This document shows, in pieces, positions 1,906 to 39,116 of a stretch of 39,646 nt of DNA (within the stretch, counting starts at the first letter, position 1; each line of letters opens with the position of its first letter). The DNA is from Paraglomus brasilianum (taxonomy: Eukaryota). The DNA is taken from the NCBI GenBank assembly GCA_910592345.1, contig CAJVPI010000243.1, positions 1 through 39,646 of the forward strand, given 5' to 3'. Both the position numbers and the translations under genes were made by a program. The notes under the pieces were generated by a model. That model saw nothing but the letters and a program-made list of their open reading frames with translations. It was not told the origin of the DNA and ran no database searches.

Positions 1906-2198
1906 TCCTATTCCAATTACTCACCAAAATGTATGACATTTAGGGAATATACACAATATCGGCTCAGTTTTAACAAGTTTTATCTTTGGGTTTATCTTTT
2001 AACATGTACACAGTGTATGCTGTATGCGGGTGTTTATATCAATAAAAAAATATCTGTGTTTGGTTCTTATTCCTGGACAATTACATAAAGAATAGGTCCA
2101 TTCGTAGTAATAGAGGCAAGAGTCACTTAACGTTGTTTTTTTTTTACTGAATATTTGGTGTATAATAATGGAATAATCAAATACGAAAATATACTCTT

Positions 2199-2581
2199 TG
2201 GCTTTGTCGTGCCAGAGAGCAGTCAATTGTCAGTCCTAGGAATTTAGCTACTTTTGAGCGGAGAGTGGCGTCTCCTACTTATAGTTAAATAAAAATACAC
2301 AGTTAGTGACCTTTAAACTAGGCTTTTCTATTCACGACTCTCAAGTGTCAATGCATAAACACTAATCCTCGATAATAATCTGTCCTCGAGTATGCTACCG
2401 CTGGGATTAATTTTGATAGCCTGATCGGTTGGGGTACAAATGTGTTTACGACTATAACAGACGCGTTTAAATAAGAAGCAATTAGTATTAATTATCGTAT
2501 TTGCCACGGGAATAATCGCGGGGGACAAGAAGCGATTATGTACTTCAGAGTATAAAGAAATATTCGCTTATTAGAATATTT
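2199..2581 (+). ncRNA. Candidate structured ncRNA, copy A (unclassified)
   Basis: Collinear with 9443-9795, including the identical block acagttagtgacct. Helices: atttagcta/tagttaaat, ggaga/tctcc, aggct/agcct, taatcct/gggatta, gtgcc/ggtac, ataatcgc/gcgattat. G-U pairs favour the + strand. Confidence 0.6.
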
Positions 2582-2628
2582 ACAATAATAAAGGAATCGA
2601 AAAGATTAAAACGCTTCTAGTGCCAACT

Positions 2629-2852
2629 TTAAAGAAATTCTGGGAACTCCGCTTGACGGTTCTTTTTCTTATGTACTTCAGATTCGTCTATTGAGATCCA
2701 CTTCTCTCTGTTTGACAGAATTTCAGAAATACTGCTCTGACTTACGCAATATTCGTTAGCCAAATCTATTTGAGATGGCCGTGGCTTTTGGCATATCTTT
2801 TACATATCTCATGCTTCTGAGCAAAGGACGGCTTACGTTTTCGCTTGTTCAT
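2629..2852 (-). mobile_element. pogo/Tigger (CENP-B-like) transposase N-terminal HTH relic
   Basis: With one frameshift reads MNKRKRKPSFAQKHEICKRYA/KPRPSQIDLANEYCVSQSSISEILSNREKW...KKNRQAEFPE, matching the CENP-B N-terminal HTH pattern. Not in the ORF track. Confidence 0.8.
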
Positions 2853-2889
2853 TCTTGAAAATTTTATTATAGATGGATGTACGTATTAA

Positions 2890-3549
2890 TATAAAGTCAT
2901 TGTTTGACCAATGAAATTGCAAGAATCGGGTCACATTCTACTCCGGTAAAATTTTATTACAAGTGCGTCTCGATATAACGACACTGCTATATAACGACAT
3001 CTCGTTATACTGACAAAAATCCTGGAACAAAAAATCTATATAATGAAATTTATTCGATGTAACGACATTATATACAAATTTTCGTTATAACGGTATAACG
3101 ACATTTTTTAGGAAAGGCTTATTGGACAAATCTTAATAAAGTATCGGGATATACCGACATTTGATATAACGACAGTCGTTATACGCAATTTGAGTGACAC
3201 ACATCTCCTTTTTTGTTTATTAAGCTCCCATTTTAAGTTTTCATTAATATTAATACAATGCTTATCTCGTTCGTTTGCTTAAGCAATAAGAATTAATTCT
3301 TAATAACATTAACAAAGCAGAAAAGGTAAGCAGAAAATCTATCAAATTTGTCCAATAAAATTGATTTTTTTTTGTATAACGACAATTGGTTGAACTTGCT
3401 TTGTTGTCGTTATAGGACATTTTTGATATAACGACCATTTAGGTTGGAACCGAGCGTGTCGTTATATCGAGACGCACTTGTATAGAGTTATTGTTTAACC
3501 AATGAAATTGCAAGAATCTGGTCACGTTCTACTCCGATAATTTGTATTA
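2890..3549. repeat. Two ~70-bp direct repeat units (2890-2959, 3481-3549) separated by the MITE
   Basis: tataaagtcattgtttgaccaatgaaattgcaagaatcgggtcacattctactccgg vs tatagagttattgtttaaccaatgaaattgcaagaatctggtcacgttctactccga. Confidence 0.85.
2960..3480. mobile_element. Tc1/mariner-pogo-type MITE, 521 bp
   Basis: Perfect 25-bp TIRs caagtgcgtctcgatataacgacac (2960-2984 / 3456-3480); TA at both sides (2958-59, 3481-82); many internal (ga)tataacgaca motifs in both orientations; no ORF. Confidence 0.92.
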
Positions 3550-3559
3550 CTTTATAATA

Positions 3560-3714
3560 TCAAAATATCGGTTTATCGGGTTTGCGAGGTCTATATGTAA
3601 TATCGGTTTTACGAGGATTTTATTATATACACGTAAATTGCACGGGAATTGAAAAAAGTATCGGTTTTGCGAGTTATCGGTTTTGAGCAGTATCGGTTTT
3701 TCGAGGTTTGACTG
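3560..3714. mobile_element. Single end of a second pogo-type element
   Basis: Ends ...tcgaggtttgactg (reverse complement CAGTCAAACCTCGA, pogo/Tigger-style TIR), with about six tatcggttt subterminal motifs. Partner TIR not found. Confidence 0.6.
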
Positions 3715-4781
3715 CAGAAAAGGCGAAAACAGTGTTTCAAGCTTTGACTGCATTTCGCATGGGGTTGTGGGATTGTGTGAAGCGAATATTTTTTGGATCA
3801 AGTTTTATTGTAATGAAATCATTGCGCAGTAACATTTAGTATAGATCACGGGAATAAGGAATAAAACTTTCTCGTATATTACTATTAAAAAAGGGCGTCC
3901 GGATGATCTTTACACATGGATAGCATTGATATTTGTTATTAAATTAAAGACTGTTGATCAGATTTTCGTGATGCCCCCTAAAAAAGTAATGTCCCGGTTA
4001 GTGAACCTTTATCCGGCTCATGCAAGTAAAATAAAATTGAACTAATCAAATCAATATAACTTACCATTGTTCGCATCATAGATATTTAAAATCAAACGAA
4101 CACTCGTATATTCCGCAAAGTAATAATGAGGTAGGGTTGGTTTTATTATTCGGCTAGCTTCTTGAAACATGTCATCACGATGTTAATCGCCTATATAGAT
4201 GTTCCAAAATAAAACGGACATATTACTCTTCTATCTTCTTGTTATGTATCGGCATTTTGATCTTTGCCAAAAAAAAAAAAACAAACAAACCTTTGACAGT
4301 CATCACGCGTACAATAGACGTAGAATCACGATGCCGGACGAAACTTTTTTAATATGAGGCGGAGTGGAAGTTGTAAAATTAGTTGTAGTGGTAAGTGTAA
4401 ATCAGTAATTATTATTATTATTATTTTTACCTCGGTTGCTAATTCCGAACTTATTCTGCGGATTCGAAATCTTGGGGAATATCTTGGAGGTCTATTGTGG
4501 AGCTTAGCTGAAATCAAACTTTCTATATTATCCGTGTGGGTGGAAGTGATTTATATTGGCGAAAATTAGTAGATACTTCGTGTTTGTATGAGAATCTCGT
4601 AGTTAGCTATAGTGATAAATTGGCTTCAAAAATTTGATTTTATGATAGCATCATTTATTTCCATCGCTATATATACACTTTCCACACTATATCTAAAAAA
4701 TTAATAAACATGTTATTAGAAAAAATTTCTTGCAAAAAGTATTGGGGAAATGAACAGGTATAAACGGAAAAGCCAAAGAGT

Positions 4782-5175
4782 CACCGCCAAAGTGGCAGTC
4801 GTGAAGCTCTTTGGAGGATAGTAAACTCAGTTTGCCCACCGCCAAAGTGGCAGTCGTGAACACACCGGCCTTTTCAATTATGACAAACAAGATCGCCGCC
4901 AAAGTGGCAGTCGCAACCCGGCTTGAGCAAAGTCTACATCTCAGAGACTCGCCGCCAAAGTGGCAGTCGCGAAGTACACTGTCATTTTCCACCTTTCAGG
5001 TACCCGCCGCCAAAGTGGCAGTCGCAAAGTACACTGTCATTTTCACCCTTGGGTACTTCGCCGCCAAAGTGGCAGTCGCGAAGTACTTCTGTCATCAGGC
5101 ACCCGCCGCCAAAGTGGCAGTCACGAAGTACTCTGTCATTTTCACCTTTGGGTACCCGCCCAATGCAGTCAGGCA
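4782..5175 (+). repeat. CRISPR-like interspaced direct-repeat array: 7 repeats plus 1 degenerate repeat, 24-bp repeat, 21-33-bp spacers
   Basis: Repeat cRccgccaaagtggcagtcgYRaa at 4782, 4837, 4894, 4950, 5005, 5059, 5104 and degenerate at 5157; period mostly 53-57 bp; inner palindrome GCCA-aag-TGGC. No cas genes, so not typed as CRISPR. Confidence 0.9.
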
Positions 5176-5302
5176 TATTACCAAATTTGGTGTGGTCATG
5201 GAAATCAATTTCGAATATTCCATGAAATTTGATTGGCTCTATTACACAAAAACACTCTCTTCTATATACTATAGCAACACCAAACAAATTATTATTGTCG
5301 TT

Positions 5303-5593
5303 ATGCACTCACCTATCGAGCTCGTCGCAAAAGTTTATATAAGAGATAAACTGAGTTTACAAAAGTCATCAGGGAATACTCGCCCTATTCCTGTCAGTAC
5401 TAATGAAGAGCGTCATCAATCAACTGAATAGTCTTTGTCAATATCTGTAATTCAAGTTTTGATTAAATCTTTAAATGTGGGCACTAGGCCACAGCTTCAA
5501 AATTTACACAAGGAGGAGCTGTTGTTAATTTTGCAACAAGTTCAGGATTTTTACAAGGAAAATGACAGTAACGAAATAAAAGAGATATTGTAA
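5303..5593 (+). pseudogene. Short ORF relic interrupted by TAG (5429-31), with a possible SAP-like helical motif
   Basis: Reading through the stop: ...HQSTE*SLSISVIQVLIKSLNVGTRPQLQNLHKEELLLILQQVQDFY...; ATTGG and TATATA lie upstream. Confidence 0.3.
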
Positions 5594-5947
5594 GTTAACA
5601 ATCTCACAGTCTGAATATGAATAGTGTAATTGGTGTGGTGATCCCATATTAATATTACGGACGGTCAAATCACCTCAATATTTGAAAACTTGTTACACGA
5701 CACAGAAAGTACCTACGAAGCTGATTATACTTAGCTTAGAAACCGATACATGTTTTGTTCTATGGTTAACGATTATACGTTATACGAATAATCGATTCGC
5801 TTGATTTGATTGGTCTTGTTGATCGTTGTTTTGTATAGATTCTCGAACGTCGATCATACACTGTATTTAGACAATCCAAATTTGGTAATATAACCTGACT
5901 GCAATGTAGCGCGGTCGCGTTTTTCTTCGTCAAATCTACATAAGATA

Positions 5948-8122
5948 ATGTCAAATTCTGTCTTAGTTAACAAAACCTTAAATAACAGTTTTACTGATGA
6001 TCCCTGGTCGTATTACGTTGAGAACGATACAGAAAGTTCAACAGTTCATCCATACTTTCGTGCCGTACAAGCAAGATTCTGGATCTTTGAACATTATATT
6101 AACTGGATGTGTGATAACGTCGAGCTTCCTATTTGGCCCACCTGTGTATCTCAATTTTACGAGTCTTTAAGTATTATCAATAAAATCAAACATGCACCTC
6201 TTTGTGTTCGAGCGTATGTGAAAAGTATTCGGGAAACTATTAATGTAAGTACCAATATTTATTTGCTTGGCTTGTTTGGACAGAAGGCTCATGAAATTAT
6301 GAATTAGGAAGAGGAGAACCAGAATATAATGGAGAATCTTGAGTATAAATATCAAGCACTATTGAAGGAACAACAGAATACGAATTTTAGCAAGGTTTGT
6401 GATTGCTACTATTTACTGGTACTAATTAATGGAAAACTTACGCATATAGTTTGAAATCCAAAATAGAACCTGTTACATGCACAAACGAATAGTATGAGTT
6501 ATGATAGGGCCACAGGTGCTGTCAATTCCAAAAGACAGGCGAACAAGAAAGGAGAGCAGAAAAGGAGAAGAACAGATGACAGTGATTATGAGGAAGATAT
6601 CGAAGGGTCTGTTCTCTTTGATGAATCAAATGAGGACAATTTAATTGATTCTATAGATGGGCTGAAAGAAGAAGCAGTGTTGCCAATTTCGGGAACAATT
6701 GCTAATGTAAGTTTTTTGTTAAAGTCCAGACTTGATATTATATTCCCAGCATGCTGATTCAACCATGCTTAATAGACTTCAAAGCAGGAATTTTTACAAA
6801 GTATCTCCAAGAAATTCAATAAATATCAGGAAAAAATTCCTAAGACACGTTGAATAATAACGTAAGCCTTGTTATTGTGATTTCAACATGGTAAATTACT
6901 TGTTCTTAAATTTTGCTTGCTATTCAATAGATTAGGTTATTGGGGCATCTTTGATCTAACACAACAGAGTCTTTATGGATGCACAGATTTCTCTCAAAAT
7001 GAAATCAGTAAAATTACACAAGATTTTGCCAATCATGTTCATTGGTCTCCACAACAAACTCCAGATTACCTTCAACAATATTTTGATTCCAATTGTGATC
7101 CCACCAAACTTAAAGATAATGCAATGGTTGAAAGAATACACACAAATATACAATTTATGTAAGGTTTTACTTATCAGTATCTAGTATTTATGTGACTACT
7201 CTGATATCTAACGAGATTTTCTTTACCAGACTCTATAATATGTCTAAAAAAGGAGCTAAGACAGAAGAAGAACATAAATTTGTTACCATATATCCTTTAT
7301 TCAATGCTTTCATGGACCATTCATTAATAAAAGATACTTGGTATGTTCATTGTGGGGTTATTTATTATTTACTACAAAATACATAGTACTAAAAAGTTTG
7401 TTTATGTGCATATAGGGGAGAGACTCAGACACTTTGCTCAAATGCAAATCCTTTTGTCAAAGCTTGCATGGGGCGAAAAGTTGATATGAAAGGCACCCTG
7501 ATAAGGACATCCAATAAATTTGAAGCCTTGTGTGGAAAGGTTGCAAATGGGTTAAGTCCATTTGGAATATCACTTGCATCACAAAAGAAGAAATATTTAG
7601 ACAAAGTCAAACTTGCAGTATTAATGCGAGACTCGTTAAATAGTATTTTAAAGAAATGGAAATACTTAAATGATGAACAGAGAAAAAAGATTATTGTATA
7701 TGGTTGGACACTTGCAGGTGGGCAGATATTTTATGTAGTCCATTTGCCCGGACTCTACTATATAACTGATATATCTCATTCAATATAGGATTTGACTTAT
7801 CTCTATATGCAATGGATTGGACTGGAAATGGGATGTATCGCTTTGGATTGATAGAAAATTGTCATCTTCCATCAAACAAAGAGGATTGTGCTTTATTTGA
7901 AGGTGCCTTTTGCCTCTTGAAAGAATTGGAGGTATGTATATCTTGTTCTTGTCCTATAATTATAATCGTTAAATACTCAATTCATCTGGTTTTGTACAGA
8001 GGAAACTAACTGAGATGGAAAAGCTCATCCAAGAATTACATGCTGCAAATACACGTGGAAAGTGTAGAAAAGTAACTACTGAGAATAGCCCAACCCTAAA
8101 CCTTAATGGAACTCCGAATTGA
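5948..8122 (+). pseudogene. Multi-exon gene of an expanded fungal family with a putative PD-(D/E)xK-like nuclease fold; disrupted
   Basis: About 8-9 GT-AG exons. Motifs WGETQT, GRKVDMKG, FEALCGKV, DKVKLAVLMRDSL, VYGW, YAMDW..GMYRFG. In-frame TGA at 6851-53 and an apparent frameshift near 6492. Fold assignment is inference. Confidence 0.6.
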
Positions 8123-8180
8123 TTTACTTCCGTTCAACTGAAATCACAATCATAACAAAGTCATGAATTTTCAGACAACT

Positions 8181-8775
8181 TATCGTGCCATCGTTAACGT
8201 GACATTGTGTAAGAGTGCAACATACACAGTATAATGCCATGCGCCCTAATGGTGACAGCGCGGGAATACAAGCGCAGTGTGCAAATATCTATAGCGGGTT
8301 ACTCAAACTGCTTTAGGCTTTCGCGGATAACACATCAAACTAATAATGTCAACGAATATTTAATTCTATAATTAGTTCATTAATAGACGGTTAGTTATCT
8401 TGTGCATCCTTTATTAAGCACAACTAAGTTAGTGAATTGCACATTGTTTGGATATAGTTTTTTTGAGTCTAAAATTCCCTTCGAATACTTGTGCTATTAG
8501 TTTATCAGTGTAGTTAGCAATCGAGAATCTGCGAGATCAAACGTACGAACCGTGAGTATATAAATCCAATTTAAGGTCACAAGGGTAGTGTTACACTTAT
8601 TACAGTACTATTACTATTGTTGAATTATCGAATAAAGTAATATTTGCTATTTTATACACCTATACATAAGTAAACATATTACTCAACCAATGGTTAAATT
8701 GAATATATTGATTAATATTGCGAGACAATTCAGTTAGTAAACATTTGCAAAATGTGTTTGACGTAGGTCATCAGA
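8181..8775 (+). ncRNA. Candidate structured ncRNA, divergent and expanded copy C
   Basis: Same motif order as copies A and B: tatcgtgcc, gggaat, taggctttc, taattcta, agtct, attccc, gtacgaa, atattgcgagacaa. Helices tttaggctt/gagtctaaa, gggaat/attccc, tcgtgc/gtacga. Confidence 0.4.
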
Positions 8776-9442
8776 TAATAATAACATTAAATCATAAACA
8801 ATAAACAAAAAACCCTTTTATATCCTTTTTAGACGAACTCTTAATTCATATTCCATCGCGATAACCACCTTTCCTCATTCTTGCACTGAATGCCTTTGTA
8901 TCTCCGTCACAGCTAGCGGCTCCAGGAATTTAACATAGCCTCTTTGATTTTGTAATCATTTAGTGTTGTTGTATTTTACCGTTCTCCCTCTCTCACCCCA
9001 CGCCACCCGCCATAAGGAATGTCTCATAACTTCAATAGTATGAGCTACCATCGTCGTTGTCAACAAAATTCGCTTTTGAGAATAAATGAAATAAAAGACA
9101 ATGATCAGGGATAATTTCGTCGTATATACTGTATTAGCCTTACTCTTCGTAATCCTACTGCGATTATATTATTTACAGTAGTTCCGACCATATATAGTAA
9201 AACAACGGCATGAAGGCCTTCGACGTCAAAGTAAGCCCTCCTCCGTATGGCAGAAAGAAACTCGCCGCATCGTCAAAGTAAACTTTAAAATAAGAATAAA
9301 TCATTCGTCTAATTCATTTTGGTTGTTTTTAAACTGGAAGACAAGTTCAAACCTTTGTTTCGCTCAACCCTAGCTTTTTGTTGTCAGATTCGATTATAAA
9401 ATATCTCGATCAAATTTGAATACACATTGCAAAGACCATTAG

Positions 9443-9795
9443 TGGCCTGTGTCGTGCCGACTATCACGGGGAGCGGGATTTAGCTAGTATCGATGGAGCG
9501 TGGCGCCTCCAACTCTAGTCAAATTTCTGATTACAGTTAGTGACCTCGTTAATTCAAGGCTTTCCACTTACGAACTATTTCGTCGTAGAATGACGTTAAT
9601 CCTAGATATGTAATCGTACTTGTGGGATAAATTCAATAGTCTTCCGTCTGGGTACAAATAAAGGTAACGTGTTTCTAAAATAACGATTAAATATCTTAAC
9701 TCGCCACTCAGATAATTGCGGGACAAGAGGGCAATTATCCTTCGTTGATATACGAATTTAACAGTTTCTCAATTATACCAACTAATTTAGAGAAT
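9443..9795 (+). ncRNA. Candidate structured ncRNA, copy B (unclassified)
   Basis: Helices atttagctag/ctagtcaaat, ggag/ctcc, aggct/agtct, cgtcgt/atgacg, atccta/tgggat, gtgcc/ggtac, ataattgc/gcaattat. Loop gtggcg (9500-05) is complementary to cgccac (9702-07). Confidence 0.6.
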
Positions 9796-10838
9796 AGTAA
9801 TAGGGTGTCAATAATATAAGTTTAGAGTAAATGCGATACTCGTTTATTAACAATAATATATGAAATATAAGGAATATCAGGAATCAAATTCACACTGCGA
9901 ATCTAGCTGAAATCCATGCTGCTTATATACCTTTCGATCTGACTAATTGAGCTATTTTTAGCAGCTATTTCCATCTATCGAATACATCTTTTACGTTTGC
10001 AGCGCTGCTACAGTACTGTCCGTTACACTGCTATTATAAATTTCGTACCACTTGCAGCACTGCTACACCGTCAACGAAGTGACGGGTTATACACTAATTG
10101 CCAATAATTTCTTTACACACTGTATATGTTTTATTTATTCAAGACGCGTAATAGAAGACTTTGTCTATATTTTCTATTTTTAGCTGTTAAACACGACGCA
10201 ATTGAGCTAAAATTGACTAAGTCTCAACCTTTTCTGCCACAAGAAGAACAGAAGTATGTATTGAAAATAACGGATGGCCAACCAATATTAAATTTTCCAG
10301 AATAGTTGCTCTACAAATTTAAAAAAAAAATCATCCGGGATAATTATTATGTAGCTTATTCTGTAAACTAAATAAACGGGTGTCCGTAATTTATTTTAGG
10401 GATTGTATCTATACAATAATACAAAGCTATTCAGATCTCTAGTATAAGGGAATAAATTCGTTTGACTCGAAACTTTGCCTAATCTAAAGTTGTTGGTATG
10501 CAGAGCAATTAAAGAAAGAAAATTCTAAAAGCCATAATAAATTGCGCACGGTCTTTACCGCGACGGAGGTGGTAACGTGAACCAGCCGCCCATGTAAAGC
10601 TTTACTACGCTAGTAGCACCTCTGGGGTACGATAATAAGCAAAATTCAAATGTCAAGCAAAACGTTGAGCGCAACCGACGAAAGCTTCTAGGCTGTTCTT
10701 TAAAAAATCTGTTAGGATAGCAGCCTGTCTTTTACATAAGAATCTAGATTGAGCGCGTTCGAGATGCGAACCAATGAGCGTTTAGAGTCGTTCATTACAC
10801 ATTAATTGGGTGGCATTTGGATGTTCGCTCAAAAAAAT

Positions 10839-22369: not shown

Positions 22370-22619
22370 TAGAGTCGGCTCTCGATTATTTACGAAGAGT
22401 TATTTTTTGTTTAATGAATTTGGTCCCAAGGAATCATTATGTGTTGGCTTGTTTTATCTTTACGTGACACATTCGCCTCTTGTTGTCGTGTCGTATCGTG
22501 TAACGAATGAGATCAACCAACGCCACAAGACATCCTTAAGGTCATGTGGGTTTGTGGCGTTATAAATATGGATTATAATTAATAATACGTAAATTCTACT
22601 GCGCTTTGTTTTTCAAATA

Positions 22620-22788
22620 CAGTCAACCCTCTTTATAGTCACCCCCTCTATAAGCACATCATGTTTGATAACCAATTACTATTGAACTTATAGGAAAAAC
22701 CCTCTATATAGTCACAACCTCTTTATAAGCACATTTTCAACAAAAGTTGCATTGTTCCTGACAGCGTGACTATAAAGAGGGTTGACTG
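22620..22788. mobile_element. pogo/Tigger-type MITE, 169 bp
   Basis: Perfect 23-bp TIRs cagtcaaccctctttatagtcac (22620-42 / 22766-88), TA at both sides, internal duplicate of the left end near 22698-22735. Confidence 0.92.
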
Positions 22789-23558
22789 TATAACTAGCAA
22801 TCGTATGTTGCTAAATTTATGGCTTCTTTTTCGCTTCCTACCCGGGGCTTTACCTCTTGTATTGGTCTAATCCACCCTTTCTGTCAAGCTGCCATTGTAA
22901 CGAAAATGTTAGACTCTGTTGAGATTTGAAAATACATCTTTTGCGGCAGAAGCAAGTGAGCGAGTTTAATCCGAACTGCTTCGTGCTTATTATTTTACCT
23001 GTATTTCTAGATTATAGATATCGGAGTTAATAGAATAGAGCTGTTTCATTTACATGGTGTTTCCCTCAGACATGTTGTGTACGGTAAGTTAGTTTAGCAG
23101 TATTATTATAACATCAACAATAGTTTAACTTGTGTCCAAAAGGAACACAAAATACGACACTATTAAACTTCTGCCTCATCTCATTAAATATGGCGGACGG
23201 ACTGAAACAATGATAAACACGTTAGGACGATGCATCAAATATTATGCACAGAGCGGAACGTTTGCAGATGTATCATATTAATATCGTAACCCGCGCGGAT
23301 AATACATATGTAGTGACTTTTACCAGAATAAATTTATGGATATCCGTGTTTCCTATTTGCTTTTACCGATAGTCAACATTTGCAATAATGTTTCTAAAGT
23401 CATTTAGTTTGATTAGCGAAAGCTATATAAAAAATGTAGCGTTTATGCTGTTACTGACATCATTGATAACAGTGATGATAAGTGATGTACTTTAACAGCA
23501 ATTTTGACGCGAAACGTGTGTTAAACGTGTTAACTAAAGACATACATATCTTTCCCAC

Positions 23559-31107: not shown

Positions 31108-32499
31108 TCACGTATTCAGTTCTTTCGACGCCATCCTTGATAAATCATCAATAGCGTTGATAACGTCCCAATTAATTTCTCCGCAGTCTTTATAGCTCAC
31201 TTCCAACACTGCTCTAGCACTTGCTGACAATTTTACCGCCTCCTCTACAGCCGTTCTTCCATCACTCGTACTGTTCCAAAAACACTTGGCCATTGTATAC
31301 ATATGCAACCCAATCATAGGATGATATCTAGGGTAGCATAGCACGTATATGGCTAGTATACGGTATCCAATTCCAGCCGCAATGTCCCACTGTTCGTTTC
31401 TAAGCAGATCAGACAGGTGTTGACTTAGTAAGGCAAGCGGAGTATGTGGTTGAGAGAGTAACGATTGGAGCAGAGTTGGTGGGATGGAGATAGGAATGAT
31501 AAACAAAGAAGGAAGTAGAGGAGAGAGAAGCGTTCTTTGACGAGTAGAGAGTTCTAGCAGAAGCGCGGTAGGCATAGTCGATGATGCTGGCGCCAGCAGG
31601 TGATCTACATCTTTAATGTTGCCGTTACATCTAATACACTTGCAGTCAAAGTAGTATTTAGCAGTGAGTAACTGTTGCCTTGTACTTTTTGTATTTGCAG
31701 TGTCAATATATGATATCATAACCTCGTCGTTACTGCTGAGATCTTCAATCGCTTTTACGATTTGAACGTTTCCATGGTACATGACAACTGCATTTGGATA
31801 GCAAGAATGATTGAATAAAGATCCGACTGGATAAGTTCCTTCTCCAACAGAAAATATCTGATTATCATGCACTGTAAAATTATTGCACCCAAATATGCAG
31901 AGATAATTTACAAGATCATCAGTTGTCAAATTGCTCTTATTGAAGTTCTTAATCGATGATAGATCATTGAGAACTACTGTAGCAACTTGATTAAAGTATT
32001 CAAGTATGTCCTGGCTATAGTCACTCTTGTGATCCATGAGTCCACTGAACGTTTCATATAAGACATCATAATCCGTCAGGTACTCTTTTTTGGCTATTCC
32101 ACCAATGACTAGACAGACTCTCCGCAACATTTCGTAATCCCCATTTGTGTTATCTGTAATCACCATTCCATCGCACAACCATTTGTGATGTAAATTCCAC
32201 GCTTTTCTCTGACATTGAACACTACAATAAAACGCCGATTTACATCGAGAGCATCGCATCAAGCTGTGAGAAGAGGATGAAGAAGAGGTAGCGCAAGGTG
32301 TTAATCGAGAAACTTGTGAATTGAAACAATGATTACAAATAGAATCAGCAACGGAAGACGTCGGAAATGAACACAGAGGAGGAGACTTTATTATTACACT
32401 TCCTTTAGGTACCGGAGAACGAGTTACAATAGCTCGATAAGACGATTGTTTGGGTACCAATGCGAGGTTATGCGCCGCGAGATAACTGTCAAGTGCCAT
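31108..32499 (-). CDS. SET and MYND domain (SMYD-like) lysine methyltransferase, intronless
   Basis: MYND CNHC..CSRCKSAFYCSVQCQ..WNLHHKWLC; SET FNHSCYPN and EVMISY; post-SET YYFDCKCIRC; C-terminal YPRYHP helical region. Confidence 0.9.
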   Translation of the reverse strand: MALDSYLAAHNLALVPKQSSYRAIVTRSPVPKGSVIIKSPPLCSFPTSSVADSICNHCFNSQVSRLTPCATSSSSSSHSLMRCSRCKSAFYCSVQCQRKAWNLHHKWLCDGMVITDNTNGDYEMLRRVCLVIGGIAKKEYLTDYDVLYETFSGLMDHKSDYSQDILEYFNQVATVVLNDLSSIKNFNKSNLTTDDLVNYLCIFGCNNFTVHDNQIFSVGEGTYPVGSLFNHSCYPNAVVMYHGNVQIVKAIEDLSSNDEVMISYIDTANTKSTRQQLLTAKYYFDCKCIRCNGNIKDVDHLLAPASSTMPTALLLELSTRQRTLLSPLLPSLFIIPISIPPTLLQSLLSQPHTPLALLSQHLSDLLRNEQWDIAAGIGYRILAIYVLCYPRYHPMIGLHMYTMAKCFWNSTSDGRTAVEEAVKLSASARAVLEVSYKDCGEINWDVINAIDDLSRMASKELNT

Positions 32500-32978: not shown

Positions 32979-35399
32979 TCAATGAAGAACATTGCCATCG
33001 CTCTCCCCTGCCTTCTCACTAATTCTATTCTCTTTATTTTCTTCCTCTCTGTCGTCACTATTCTCACTTTCTGGATCGTCATTAATTTCCTTCAATATGT
33101 CTCTAACTTCTTCACTTTCATATACAACACTCTTGGCATTTTTTATAAATTCTACAATTTTAATGACGTCTTTCTCTCCATCAGTCTCAACACCGCTACT
33201 AGTATCAACAATCCATGGCTTAACTGTCGTCGCTGCATCAATCACATTATCTGGAGTCAGTCCACCTGCTAGAATAACCGGCACTCCTGCATCATGCACT
33301 TTTTTAGCGAAACTCCAATCGAACGTCTTCCCACTTCCACCAGAATACTCGGAGCCGTGCACCTTGGTATCTAATAACACATAAGCGTTGTAACCGGGTT
33401 GAGTGACAAGGGTGATATTTTTGAATGATTGATCTATATGAAATGCTTTGATCGCCGGAACCGGCAGGTACCGAGCAAGGTCAAGTGGCTCATCTCCATG
33501 CAGTTGAATAAGATCTAATTTTACATGGTCCGTAATAGTGATGATTTCATCGAGCGATTGGTTTTGAAATACGCCAACAATTAATGGTTTCCGCGCTCTG
33601 TTAATCCTTTGTGCGTGAATATGAAACCAGGCATCTTCTCCTGGTAGAATCGTTCGCGATTTCTCTTCAGGTTCAACTTTAACTGAATCGAATAATTTTT
33701 CCGATTGCAGTTCTCGAATCACATTGACAATCTCTAATGCACGGTCAACTGTTACTTGCCGCTTAGACTTGGCAAAGATTAGTCCGATTATATCAGCACC
33801 CGCGTCCGTCGCTTCGATAGCGGCTTCGACTGTATTTATGCCACATATCTTCACTAGTGGACTCTTGGGCCAAGTACTAGTTTTTTGTAGTTCTTGTTGT
33901 TCGGGTTGGTCGTCTTTTTGAGCGTCGTGTGTTGGAGGAGCAATACCTAGAATCTGTTCGACAAACAATCGTTTGTCTTTCGCTTTCATCAATGCTTCCC
34001 CAATTAAGAATGCACCCACACCGTGGTCGAGGTAGGGTAATACATCATCGCGTGTGGATATACCGCTTAGTGCAGCTAAAATGACATCCTTGGGAGCCAA
34101 CTCAGCCAATCGAGACGTAGTTCCCACGTCAACTTCAAAATTATGTAGGTTACGGTTATTGACGCCAATTACTTTAGCACCCAAAGCAAGTGCTCTCTTC
34201 ATTTCTATTTCGTCATGGACTTCGACCAACGGTTCCATTCCTAAATCCTTTGCAAAATCGTATAACTCGACCAGTTGCTCATCCGATAACATTGAGACTA
34301 TCAAAAGAATGGTGTCAGCTCCATGTAATCTAGCCTCCATGATCTGGTAAGTATCTACAATGAAGTCTTTTCTTAATATTGCTGGTCTGTTTGGAATGGA
34401 TGATAGAATATCTCTCACTTGGCGCATGTCATTTAAACTACCCTTGAACCACCTTCCTTCGGTTAACACTGAAATAACAGATGCACCTGCGCGGGTATAT
34501 TCTAATGCTTGCTGAGCAGCATTCACCGATAGATTGATGTTTCCTTTGCTAGGCGATGCTCTTTTAACTTCGGCCATAATAGCAGGGTATTCGGGAAGAG
34601 TTTGTTTGATTCTAGCCGAAAAGTCGATTAATGGAGGCGCGACGTGTAACGCAAGTAGCTTTTTGAGATCAGTTGTGCTAGTTCCAGGTTCCTTCTTTGC
34701 CGCGGCGACGTCAAGTAGTCGCTGTTTGTATATTTTATCTAGAATGCTGGGCACTGCTTTAGTGATTAGGGTTGTGCTTGCTAGAGGGGTACCAATACGA
34801 TAAGCAGGATTATCTTCCCATCTTCCTCCTTCTAGTCTCAAAAAATTTTCTAGAATAGTTTTCCCATGCTCACTGAGTATACTCTCTGGATGGAATTGCA
34901 CGCCTTCGATAGTTAACTCTCGATGTCTTAAACCCATTACGATTCCATTTTCGGTCCAAGATGTTACTTCCAATACATCTGGTATGGAAGGTGGTTCGGC
35001 TGACAGGGAATGATATCTGGTAGCAGATATTTCGGGGGGAACATTTATGAATACACCTTTGCCGTCGTGTATGATTGTACTTGTCTTTCCATGTGTTATA
35101 TCTCCAATGCCTGAGACTGATCCTCCATAGACGTGTGCTATGCATTGCTCACCTAAGCATACTCCCAAGATCGGTATTTTGCCCGCATAGTAAGAAATGA
35201 CGTCTAGAGATATGCCCGAATCATTAGCTGGATGACCTGGTCCAGGTGAGATAATGATGTTGCGAGGGGAAAGCGCATCGAGGTCAGAGAGAGTGACTTG
35301 GTCATTACGAAATACTACCACATTTGCACCTAGCTCACTGACATATTGGTATAGATTCCAGGTGAATGAGTCGTAGTTGTCTATCAAGATTGTTGTCAT
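32979..35399 (-). CDS. TRP1: Trifunctional tryptophan biosynthesis protein (TrpG GATase - IGPS - PRAI), intronless
   Basis: IDNYDSFT, SPGPGHP, GVCLG, RYHSL, QFHPES; AEVKRASPSKG, LRKDF, GVNNRNL; VKICG, QLHGDE, GGSGKTFDW, LAGGL, DTSSGVE. Confidence 0.97.
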   Translation of the reverse strand: MTTILIDNYDSFTWNLYQYVSELGANVVVFRNDQVTLSDLDALSPRNIIISPGPGHPANDSGISLDVISYYAGKIPILGVCLGEQCIAHVYGGSVSGIGDITHGKTSTIIHDGKGVFINVPPEISATRYHSLSAEPPSIPDVLEVTSWTENGIVMGLRHRELTIEGVQFHPESILSEHGKTILENFLRLEGGRWEDNPAYRIGTPLASTTLITKAVPSILDKIYKQRLLDVAAAKKEPGTSTTDLKKLLALHVAPPLIDFSARIKQTLPEYPAIMAEVKRASPSKGNINLSVNAAQQALEYTRAGASVISVLTEGRWFKGSLNDMRQVRDILSSIPNRPAILRKDFIVDTYQIMEARLHGADTILLIVSMLSDEQLVELYDFAKDLGMEPLVEVHDEIEMKRALALGAKVIGVNNRNLHNFEVDVGTTSRLAELAPKDVILAALSGISTRDDVLPYLDHGVGAFLIGEALMKAKDKRLFVEQILGIAPPTHDAQKDDQPEQQELQKTSTWPKSPLVKICGINTVEAAIEATDAGADIIGLIFAKSKRQVTVDRALEIVNVIRELQSEKLFDSVKVEPEEKSRTILPGEDAWFHIHAQRINRARKPLIVGVFQNQSLDEIITITDHVKLDLIQLHGDEPLDLARYLPVPAIKAFHIDQSFKNITLVTQPGYNAYVLLDTKVHGSEYSGGSGKTFDWSFAKKVHDAGVPVILAGGLTPDNVIDAATTVKPWIVDTSSGVETDGEKDVIKIVEFIKNAKSVVYESEEVRDILKEINDDPESENSDDREEENKENRISEKAGESDGNVLH

Positions 35400-38121: not shown

Positions 38122-38626
38122 TTTCAGAATAATAGTCCATATTAATATTGATGAAAATAAAAATGATAAATGTATCTGAATTACGTTACCTTTTAGTGGT
38201 TTCTGCATTTCATATTAATATTCAACCTCTTGGAGGAAAAAACCTGTAATTGCATTATCAAAACCAGCCCCAAGCCTCAGAGTATGAAATCCCTAGATGC
38301 ACATAATCATAATGTTCTAAGATCCAAGCAATGCGTTCTAAGTGTAAAATTTGTAAATTTCGTCGTATTAGCATTGTGCATTTAAGAACAGCCATGGGAA
38401 TCGAATAAATACTATTACTATTACCTCTTTCGATAAAAATTGACTAGGCTTATGTCATCATTTTGCATAAGGAGTTTAATAGCAATTGCGTAATCAACAC
38501 GTTAGCACTAATGTCAGTGGCATTGTCTACCTCGTTCTTTCAGCGCAATTACCCTTTTTGCAGATGATTTGCGTTGTAAACTTGCTACCCAATTTTTTTT
38601 TCGGCACTATTTTGTATCCCACAAAA

Positions 38627-39116
38627 ATGACCAAGCGTAACTATAGGCGAAACAAACCAGTTGCTTCCTCAAGCCGTCAAACGCCGACTACGGAACTTGT
38701 CTCTCTCTTCTGTCTCGTTGACGGCGAGTCTACAGAAAACGCGTTTGCAGTCAGAATAGATAAGAATAAATTTGTTAGTGACCTTCGCGAGAAAATATGG
38801 GAGAACCAACAAACTTTCAAGAACGTGGATGCAGCAGAACTCATTCTCTGGGCCGTCTCCATACCACAATGGGAAATGGCTCACCACAACTGAATTCAAT
38901 TCAGGAGACAAAAAAAAGCTGCTTCCTGGAGAGGAGATGCAAGAAGCATTTCCTGAACCTCTGCCAAAAAAATACGTCCATGTTATTGTGAAACCGCCTA
39001 CCATGTATGTAATCTTGACTGTACTTTCCATCCGTGCTTTTTGCTTACCTGCATCTGATTATCTATTTCTTCTTTTCAGTATCACTCCCTTTGAGGACCT
39101 CTCTCGATTTTTCTAG
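38627..39116 (+). pseudogene. Crinkler (CRN) effector N-terminal ubiquitin-like domain, frameshifted, no C-terminal domain
   Basis: VSLFCLVDGE..NAFAVRID..VSDLREKI..DAAELILWAVSIP, frameshift near 38865, then FPEPLPKKYVHVIVKPP; intron 39005-39079, then an early stop. Confidence 0.85.

What the first reader, a model, noticed from the sequence alone, without database searches (positions are those of the whole stretch)
2199..9795. Unclassified ~350-400 nt structured RNA present twice (2199-2581, 9443-9795) with covariation and two candidate pseudoknots
Seen: two non-coding stretches 7.2 kb apart share collinear blocks (tgtcgtgcc, atttagcta, ggagNgtggcgYctcc, acagttagtgacct, aggcttt, taatcct, tgggat, gggtacaaat, gccac, ggacaaga) separated by variable-length segments. 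Pairing is kept while sequence changes: ATAATcGC/GCgATTAT (2512/2532) vs ATAATtGC/GCaATTAT (9712/9731) is a clean C-G to U-A swap; AGGCT/AGCCT vs AGGCT/AGTCT; unrelated hairpins at the same position (agtgt/acact vs cgtcgt/atgacg). The conserved loop GUGGCG can pair with distal UGCCAC/CGCCAC, and the GACAA loop of the 3' hairpin can pair with the 5' UGUC. Both copies are preceded by TATAA..ATCAAAT..GAA. Inference: selection on RNA structure rather than neutral repeat decay. I cannot match it to snRNA, SRP, RNase P/MRP or group I/II intron consensus.
Basis: partly seen in the sequence, partly recalled or inferred. Interest (0 to 1): 0.88.

Follow-up and report, generated by a model that had tools for sequence, protein, structure and literature searches.

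The report
Folded leader of fungal retrotransposon LTR
The two stretches are leftover ends of a jumping gene (a Ty3/gypsy retrotransposon) in a root-symbiotic fungus, read on the opposite strand, and their conserved predicted fold likely serves the element's own RNA packaging, copying and translation rather than being a new host RNA.

Summary
The repeat is real, but it is not a free-standing RNA gene. Eight metagenome contigs carry it. All 7 that reach the end share a sharp boundary matching window 2205 and 9450. In 2 of the 7, the opposite strand ends in CA and runs into a primer-site-like TGG, then Gag and protease; Pol relatives come from Paraglomus and match Ty3 RT. The copies are therefore 3' (R-U5) ends of Ty3/gypsy LTRs on the minus strand, inserted independently; copy 2 is probably a 1273-bp solo LTR with a 5-bp duplication. 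One proposed pseudoknot is plausible but invariant, the other weak; the upstream TATA motif is flank. Extras: a palindrome kept with changed letters, and a 1.5-kb AUG-free leader with an in-frame CUG. No RNA or bench data. This scan noted folded LTR ends in other genomes; this sequence was not found in its index.

The parts
9450..10063 (-). LTR copy 2, part homologous to outside copies (part of U3, R, U5); LTR 3' end (CA) at 9451-9450
   Evidence: 79% identity over 638 columns to L003; profile hit 9450-9792, E 2.8e-88; same boundary in 7 outside copies
10064..10722 (-). probable remainder of U3 of a 1273-bp solo LTR, starting TG at 10722
   Evidence: CA at 10721-10722 followed by the same 5-mer as 9445-9449, 0.02 expected by chance; no outside copy matches this part, so inferred only
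9445..9449 (.). candidate 5-bp target-site duplication, left copy (right copy 10723-10727)
9923..9929 (-). TATA box (TATATAA) of the LTR promoter, inferred
   Evidence: also in L003 and L008, 480-526 nt from the LTR end
9843..9848 (-). AATAAA poly(A)-signal-like hexamer, inferred to lie in R
   Evidence: also in L003 and L008, 399-437 nt from the LTR end
9450..9800 (-). structured U5 / 5' leader, copy 2 (terminal hairpin partly deleted, second long-range pairing broken, palindrome decayed)
   Evidence: no ATG in 9450-9900, 7.0 expected
9711..9738 (-). hairpin with the U-A version of the swapped pair
   Evidence: helix 1
   Evidence: helices 2 and 12; -12.0 kcal/mol duplex, rival nested stem -11.1
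2205..2600 (-). LTR copy 1, a diverged (55-64% identity) fragment of the same U5/R end; far end not found
   Evidence: profile hit 2206-2539, E 1.9e-33; matches to L008 up to 2600; no CA plus duplication within 2.5 kb
2260..2275 (-). copy 1 hairpin whose loop can pair with 2503-2507
2461..2466 (.). copy 1 remnant (ACGCGT) of the conserved palindrome, candidate dimerisation site
2512..2539 (-). copy 1 hairpin with the C-G version of the swapped pair
   Evidence: helix 1

Best explanation
The two stretches are independently inserted 3' ends of long terminal repeats of a Paraglomus Ty3/gypsy retrotransposon family on the minus strand, and their predicted fold is likely the 5' leader of the element's genomic RNA, likely used for dimerisation, packaging and priming of reverse transcription. 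Shown: shared terminus, primer-site-like TGG, Gag and protease downstream in two contigs, RT-RNaseH in relatives. Inferred: transcription starts below the TATA box (about 9915-9850); the ~370-nt U5 folds into a row of hairpins; two hairpin loops pair far upstream; an exposed palindrome joins two genomes; ribosomes scan the AUG-free leader and start at a CUG and at the Gag AUG. The window copies are decaying remnants without Gag or Pol.
For: 8 of 9 metagenome hits carry the element. All 7 that reach the end share the boundary; 5 have unrelated flanks, and 2 (L002, L007, 95% identical to each other) continue on the other strand ...CGACA-GT-TGGTGG into Gag. Pfam: Retrotrans_gag, zf-CCHC, Asp_protease_2. 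Protease relatives carry RT and RNase H with no integrase between protease and RT, and 3 of 6 are named Paraglomus occultum; best PDB match Ty3 RT, E 1e-90. The window's Trp1 clusters with P. brasilianum and P. occultum. TATA and AATAAA sit in LTR order on the minus strand in 3 copies. Fold z is better on the minus strand in 7 of 7 copies; consensus energy -15.2 vs -5.8. 15 of 81 pairs change on both sides, shuffles 6.3 +/- 1.8, 0 of 500 as high, slid controls 0-4. Stem columns vary less: 47 of 162 vs 84 of 183, p 0.0013. The palindrome is kept with different letters (GAACGCGTTC, AAACGCGTTT, ATGCGCAT) and ranks first or joint first for self-pairing in L001, L002, L008, L005. The two longest ATG-free runs of the window's minus strand overlap the two copies. 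Ty1 precedent: 5' pseudoknot needed for reverse transcription, palindromes proposed for dimerisation (PMC3681743, PMC4974528).
Against: Only 8 sequences (about 6 independent); I drew the structure by hand from L001, which inflates paired cells, and the shuffle ignores relatedness; 3 of the 15 double changes rest on poorly aligned copy 1 alone. Neither long-range pairing shows a double change; the first competes with a nested stem of similar energy. The strand signal by pair column is weak (14 with G-U vs 7 with A-C, p 0.19), and some stems pair better on plus. The window copies fold weakly (z -1.3, -0.6). The palindrome is in a hairpin loop only in L001/L002. L008 and L005 do not avoid ATG (9 vs 8.4; 4 vs 4.0). 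No full-length element, LTR 5' end, polypurine tract or integrase was seen. The function is by analogy only.
Confidence: 0.8

Rival explanations
1. The LTR end is mainly a translation element: a pseudoknotted IRES or shunt structure that loads ribosomes for a non-AUG (CUG) start of an N-terminally extended Gag.
For: L002 has no ATG in any frame for 1523 nt up to the Gag Met (15.0 expected). The first near-cognate codon after the last in-frame stop is a CTG with A at -3 and G at +4, 358 codons upstream of that Met. The Met-free extension also occurs in P0003, P0004, P0006 and P0008, and its second half has pS 0.069 vs pN 0.018. Two long-range loop pairings are possible.
Against: An AUG-free U5 fits ordinary cap-dependent scanning better than internal entry; the structure ends about 80 nt before the CUG, beyond the primer site; L008 and L005 keep the fold but not the ATG avoidance. 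Splicing to an upstream AUG is not excluded.
Confidence: 0.1
2. The LTR carries an unknown catalytic or separately transcribed RNA (ribozyme, or antisense RNA on the plus strand).
For: Elaborate fold with invariant blocks; some stems pair better on the plus strand; LTR elements with small-RNA-derived LTR parts exist (PMC10886601, abstract).
Against: No Rfam match in the window at gathering score or in 5 outside loci at E<=1, apart from one archaeal sRNA outside the element; no hammerhead, HDV, hairpin-ribozyme or group I core by my simple patterns on either strand of 7 copies; no tRNA in 8 loci; plus-strand z near 0.
Confidence: 0.05
3. The LTR identity is right but the structure is incidental: short inverted repeats plus subfamily drift mimic covariation.
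Against: 4 double changes in one 7-bp helix, a transversion pair U-G to G-C, double changes in 9 of 14 helices; CpG is not depleted in the copies (observed/expected 1.3-1.6).
Confidence: 0.05

Closest known systems
Ty3/gypsy (Metaviridae) LTR retrotransposons; S. cerevisiae Ty3 (PDB 4ol8, 7q5b)
   Same: LTR ending in CA, primer-site-like TGG, Gag (CA, CCHC), protease; relatives have RT-RNaseH whose best solved match is Ty3 RT.
   Different: U5 about 370 nt with many hairpins; Gag frame open 358 codons upstream of the first Met; Ty3 uses tRNA-iMet and a bipartite primer site (PMC4974528, passages), while the primer here is unidentified.
Ty1 5' regulatory RNA (long-range pseudoknot, PAL palindromes)
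   Same: 5'-terminal RNA with long-range pairing and palindromes, tied to reverse transcription and dimerisation (PMC3681743, PMC4974528).
   Different: Ty1 is Ty1/copia (recalled) and its structure extends into GAG; here the fold lies in the LTR upstream of the primer site, has two candidate long-range pairings and is untested.
Murine leukemia virus glyco-Gag
   Same: CUG in good context, in frame and upstream of the Gag AUG (264 nt in MLV; PMC3265304, passages).
   Different: Here 1074 nt upstream, in a fungal retrotransposon; the extension has a CxxC motif and acidic/proline-rich stretches; use of the CUG is not shown.
Cassandra, Helenus, Ajax (TRIMs with small-RNA-derived LTRs)
   Same: LTR that looks like an RNA gene (PMC10886601, abstract).
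   Different: No tRNA or 5S match here; the LTR adjoins gag and protease, so the family is not a miniature element.

Membership tests
Ty3/gypsy LTR retrotransposon | LTR 3' end CA at a sharp boundary shared by copies in unrelated sites | tested here: met
   6 of 7 outside copies and both window copies end CGACA on minus; L008 has one change
Ty3/gypsy LTR retrotransposon | primer binding site (TGG...) just after the 5' LTR | tested here: met
   2-nt spacer then TGGTGG in L002 and L007; primer tRNA not identified
Ty3/gypsy LTR retrotransposon | gag and aspartic protease downstream of the primer site | tested here: met
   PF03732, PF00098, PF13650 above cut-off
Ty3/gypsy LTR retrotransposon | pol order PR-RT-RH-INT | tested here: inconclusive
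   PR-RT-RH without intervening integrase in relatives P0001, P0004, P0005; integrase not seen; the LTR-bearing contigs end before RT
Ty3/gypsy LTR retrotransposon | LTR 5' end TG and 4-6-bp target-site duplication | tested here: inconclusive
   candidate for copy 2 (0.02 expected), none for copy 1; no outside copy is long enough
Ty3/gypsy LTR retrotransposon | two LTRs around gag-pol, with polypurine tract | not testable with these tools
   no genome held; no Gag or Pol match in the window, so the two copies are not the ends of one element
Retroelement 5' leader with packaging/dimerisation signals | conserved secondary structure on the sense strand | tested here: met
   with small-sample caveats
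Retroelement 5' leader with packaging/dimerisation signals | loop palindrome that dimerises the RNA; Gag binding | tested here: inconclusive
   palindrome kept with changed letters, in a loop only in L001/L002; function not testable here
Known Rfam RNA families (snRNA, SRP, RNase P/MRP, group I/II, small ribozymes) | covariance-model match | tested here: not met
Hammerhead, HDV-like, hairpin ribozyme, group I intron | catalytic core motifs (patterns recalled) | tested here: not met
   0 matches on either strand of 7 copies; simple patterns miss divergent forms
TRIM with tRNA/5S-derived LTR (Helenus, Ajax, Cassandra) | tRNA- or 5S-like sequence in the LTR, no coding region | tested here: not met
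IRES / non-AUG initiation (glyco-Gag-like) | initiation at the upstream CUG; cap independence | not testable with these tools
   sequence is compatible with a CUG start; no translation data

The most novel reading that the evidence does not exclude
Paraglomus Ty3/gypsy elements carry in their LTR a ~370-nt RNA domain with two loop-to-distal pseudoknots and a retrovirus-like dimerisation palindrome, one pseudoknot switching with a nested stem. It heads a 1.5-kb AUG-free leader that makes a CUG-initiated, 358-residue-longer Gag: a fungal counterpart of glyco-Gag under control of a new RNA switch.
Probability: 0.25. Interest if true: 0.65.

Novelty: new member of a known kind. Interest (0 to 1): 0.35.

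Why it matters
It removes a false new ncRNA class: the repeat is an LTR end. It still offers a covariation-supported structure for a Ty3/gypsy 5' leader; a 2016 review called the Ty3 RNA structure uncharacterized (PMC4974528, passage). Natural subfamily variation gives ready compensatory mutants for testing dimerisation and priming. If the CUG-started Gag extension is real, it would extend non-AUG Gag initiation from gammaretroviruses to fungal retrotransposons.

Tried and rejected
Rfam: nothing. Own genome not held. Expression: no RNA holder listed; the one run listed, X1 (contigs, RNA status a guess), laid only pieces, including two contigs resembling other copies of the element; no evidence either way. 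Viral contigs: searches found nothing, and the 10 hits were 16-21-nt chance matches, dropped. Prokaryote genomes: 1 hit, L020, not analysed; taken as the same chance match as L006, which lies in a bacterial ORF; both dropped. Group I reading (AGGCU/AGYCU as P7): rejected, outside copies break it and no core pattern matched. One full element spanning both copies: rejected, no Gag or Pol between them; the interval holds short intron-split frames. LTR end at 10067: not supported, L003 keeps a few matching bases beyond it. UAAUCC/GGAUUA pairing: mismatched in L001, L002, L003, L008 and copy 2, left out. A 17-nt U3/U5 complementarity is, by my rough estimate, within chance. No covariance model was built and R-scape was not available. 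The Atlas gave no answer. Paper searches: (gypsy, retrotransposon, non-AUG, gag, leader; LTR retrotransposon, covariation, conserved RNA structure, long terminal repeat) found 0 papers; searches listed none on this family by title or abstract. These cover only the open library and no supplements. My note gave the CTG as position 444; one search shows 450.
Full report
Observation. No third copy lies in the window. On the plus strand neither folds better than shuffles (z 0.58, -0.21). Rfam has no match at gathering score in the window and only two chance hits elsewhere in 2000-10000. The host is a Paraglomus-like arbuscular mycorrhizal fungus: its Trp1 shares a 90% cluster with P. brasilianum and P. 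occultum proteins.

More copies. A pattern joining two blocks found 9 metagenome loci. Eight carry the element; L006 is a chance match in a bacterial ORF. Seven reach the left end, and all start at the position equal to 2205 and 9450 (6 TGTCGTG, 1 TATCGTG). Five have unrelated flanks. To the right, copy 2 matches L003 to 10063, and copy 1 matches L008 to 2600. This is a dispersed mobile element with a sharp end.

Identity. In L002 and L007 (95% identical, so one subfamily) the opposite strand ends CGACA, then two bases, then TGGTGG, the form of a primer binding site (the form is established knowledge, the tRNA was not identified). A 640-codon frame with Retrotrans_gag and zf-CCHC and a protease frame follow. 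The six protease relatives include three from P. occultum; three carry RT and RNase H with no integrase in between, and the best solved match is Ty3 RT (E 1e-90). A 97%-identical Gag N-terminus is named P. brasilianum. On the minus strand, copy 2, L003 and L008 have TATATAA 480-526 nt and AATAAA 399-437 nt before the end, the order expected for U3-R-U5. Neither window copy is followed by a primer site, and the window has no Gag or Pol, so they are separate insertions. Copy 2 has a candidate far end at 10722 with a 5-bp duplication (0.02 expected by chance), but no outside copy confirms 10064-10722. Copy 1 is 55-64% identical to the others and its far end was not found.

Structure. Folding z-scores favour the element strand in 7 of 7 copies (-0.6 to -3.3 vs +1.2 to -1.7), as does the consensus fold (-15.2 vs -5.8 kcal/mol, on 8 and 9 rows). 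I drew 14 helices (81 pairs) from L001 on the 8-row minus-strand alignment (L004 and L007 left out as short near-duplicates). 93.6% of 530 cells pair; 15 pairs change on both sides against 6.3 +/- 1.8 in shuffles (0 of 500) and 0-4 in slid controls. One 7-bp helix has four double changes and one pair goes U-G to G-C. Three of the 15 rest on copy 1 alone. Stem columns vary less than the rest (47 of 162 vs 84 of 183). Against: the model is hand-fitted, the shuffle ignores descent, further pair types do not exceed shuffles (33 vs 34.4), and the G-U vs A-C strand test is 30 vs 8 cells but only 14 vs 7 columns (p 0.19). CpG decay is an unlikely main source, since CpG is not depleted.

Pseudoknots and palindrome. 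The GACAA/UGUC pairing uses the LTR's terminal bases and has no support. A palindrome at one position reads GAACGCGTTC, AAACGCGTTT or ATGCGCAT in three subfamilies, ACGCGT in copy 1, and is decayed in copy 2. It is the best or joint best self-pairing 12-mer in four of the five full outside copies (third in L003) but sits in a clear loop only in L001/L002.

Translation. L002 has no ATG in any frame over 1523 nt before the Gag Met (15.0 expected), L007 none over 1292 (10.2), copy 2 none in 9450-9900 (7.0); L003 and copy 1 have one each (7.7, 5.3); L008 has 9 (8.4). Putative U3 of copy 2 is also below expectation (5 vs 11.1), so the contrast within that copy is modest. After the last in-frame stop the first near-cognate codon is a CTG in strong context, 358 codons before the Met. 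Relatives share a Met-free extension. This fits leaky scanning with a CUG start, as in MLV glyco-Gag (PMC3265304), but is untested and splicing is not excluded.

Mechanism and comparison. Most likely the fold is the cis-acting head of the retrotransposon RNA: dimerisation, Gag binding and priming, as shown or proposed for the Ty1 5' pseudoknot and palindromes (PMC3681743, first of two parts of the text read; PMC4974528, passages). The LTR identity is well supported (about 0.93), structural selection likely (about 0.85), the specific function inferred by analogy. Ribozyme or ncRNA membership was tested and not met. Other papers seen: PMC10886601 (abstract, outline, a term search with no hits), PMC3265304 and PMC11952901 (passages; the latter reports low TE content in Paraglomerales and does not describe this RNA in the passages seen). 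Supplements were not read; repeat libraries linked to PMC11952901 may already hold this family. Two earlier scan notes on folded LTR ends in other genomes came up after this reading was formed; sequence look-ups found nothing.

Verdict. A real, apparently structure-conserved LTR end of a Paraglomus Ty3/gypsy family, not a new class of RNA gene. New member of a known kind, interest 0.35, with a testable side lead in the AUG-free leader.

Noticed in passing
L002 931-2862 (minus); L007 111-2027: Gag frame open 358 codons upstream of its first Met, no ATG in any frame, CTG in strong context at the start; the extension has His-rich and CxxC motifs and is Met-free in P0003, P0004, P0006, P0008.
   Followed up: partly
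window 2960-3480: MITE-like element with 27-bp terminal inverted repeats flanked by TA, within a 71-bp direct repeat (2890-2960 / 3481-3550).
   Followed up: no
window 22617-22791: Short element with 26-bp terminal inverted repeats; a 22-nt match lies just left of the LTR end in L001, suggesting insertion into the same MITE family.
   Followed up: no
window 4776-5160: Array of about 55-bp units with an invariant GCCAAAGTGGCAGTC core; partly covered by run X1.
   Followed up: no
window 10530-10640: Three short motifs resembling blocks of the structured region, in the same order, inside the putative U3; profile score not significant (E 3.4).
   Followed up: partly
window 2356-2794: Second-longest ATG-free run of the minus strand extends about 190 nt beyond the recognised end of copy 1, so that LTR may reach further.
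   Followed up: no
window 38486-38893: ORF with a Crinkler N-terminal domain (PF20147, E 8e-16).
   Followed up: no
window 31108-32499 and 32979-35399: Intronless SET/MYND gene and trifunctional Trp1 gene; other host genes seen by eye and not tested: RING protein, kinesin-like, ribosomal protein S3Ae, Myb-repeat protein.
   Followed up: partly
L001 1-810; L009 79-582: Neighbours of outside copies are other mobile DNA: a LINE zf-RVT end and a Pif1-type helicase fragment.
   Followed up: no
L002 931-1078 (minus): Gag and protease frames overlap in different frames, which implies a frameshift for Gag-Pol; the site was not examined.
   Followed up: no
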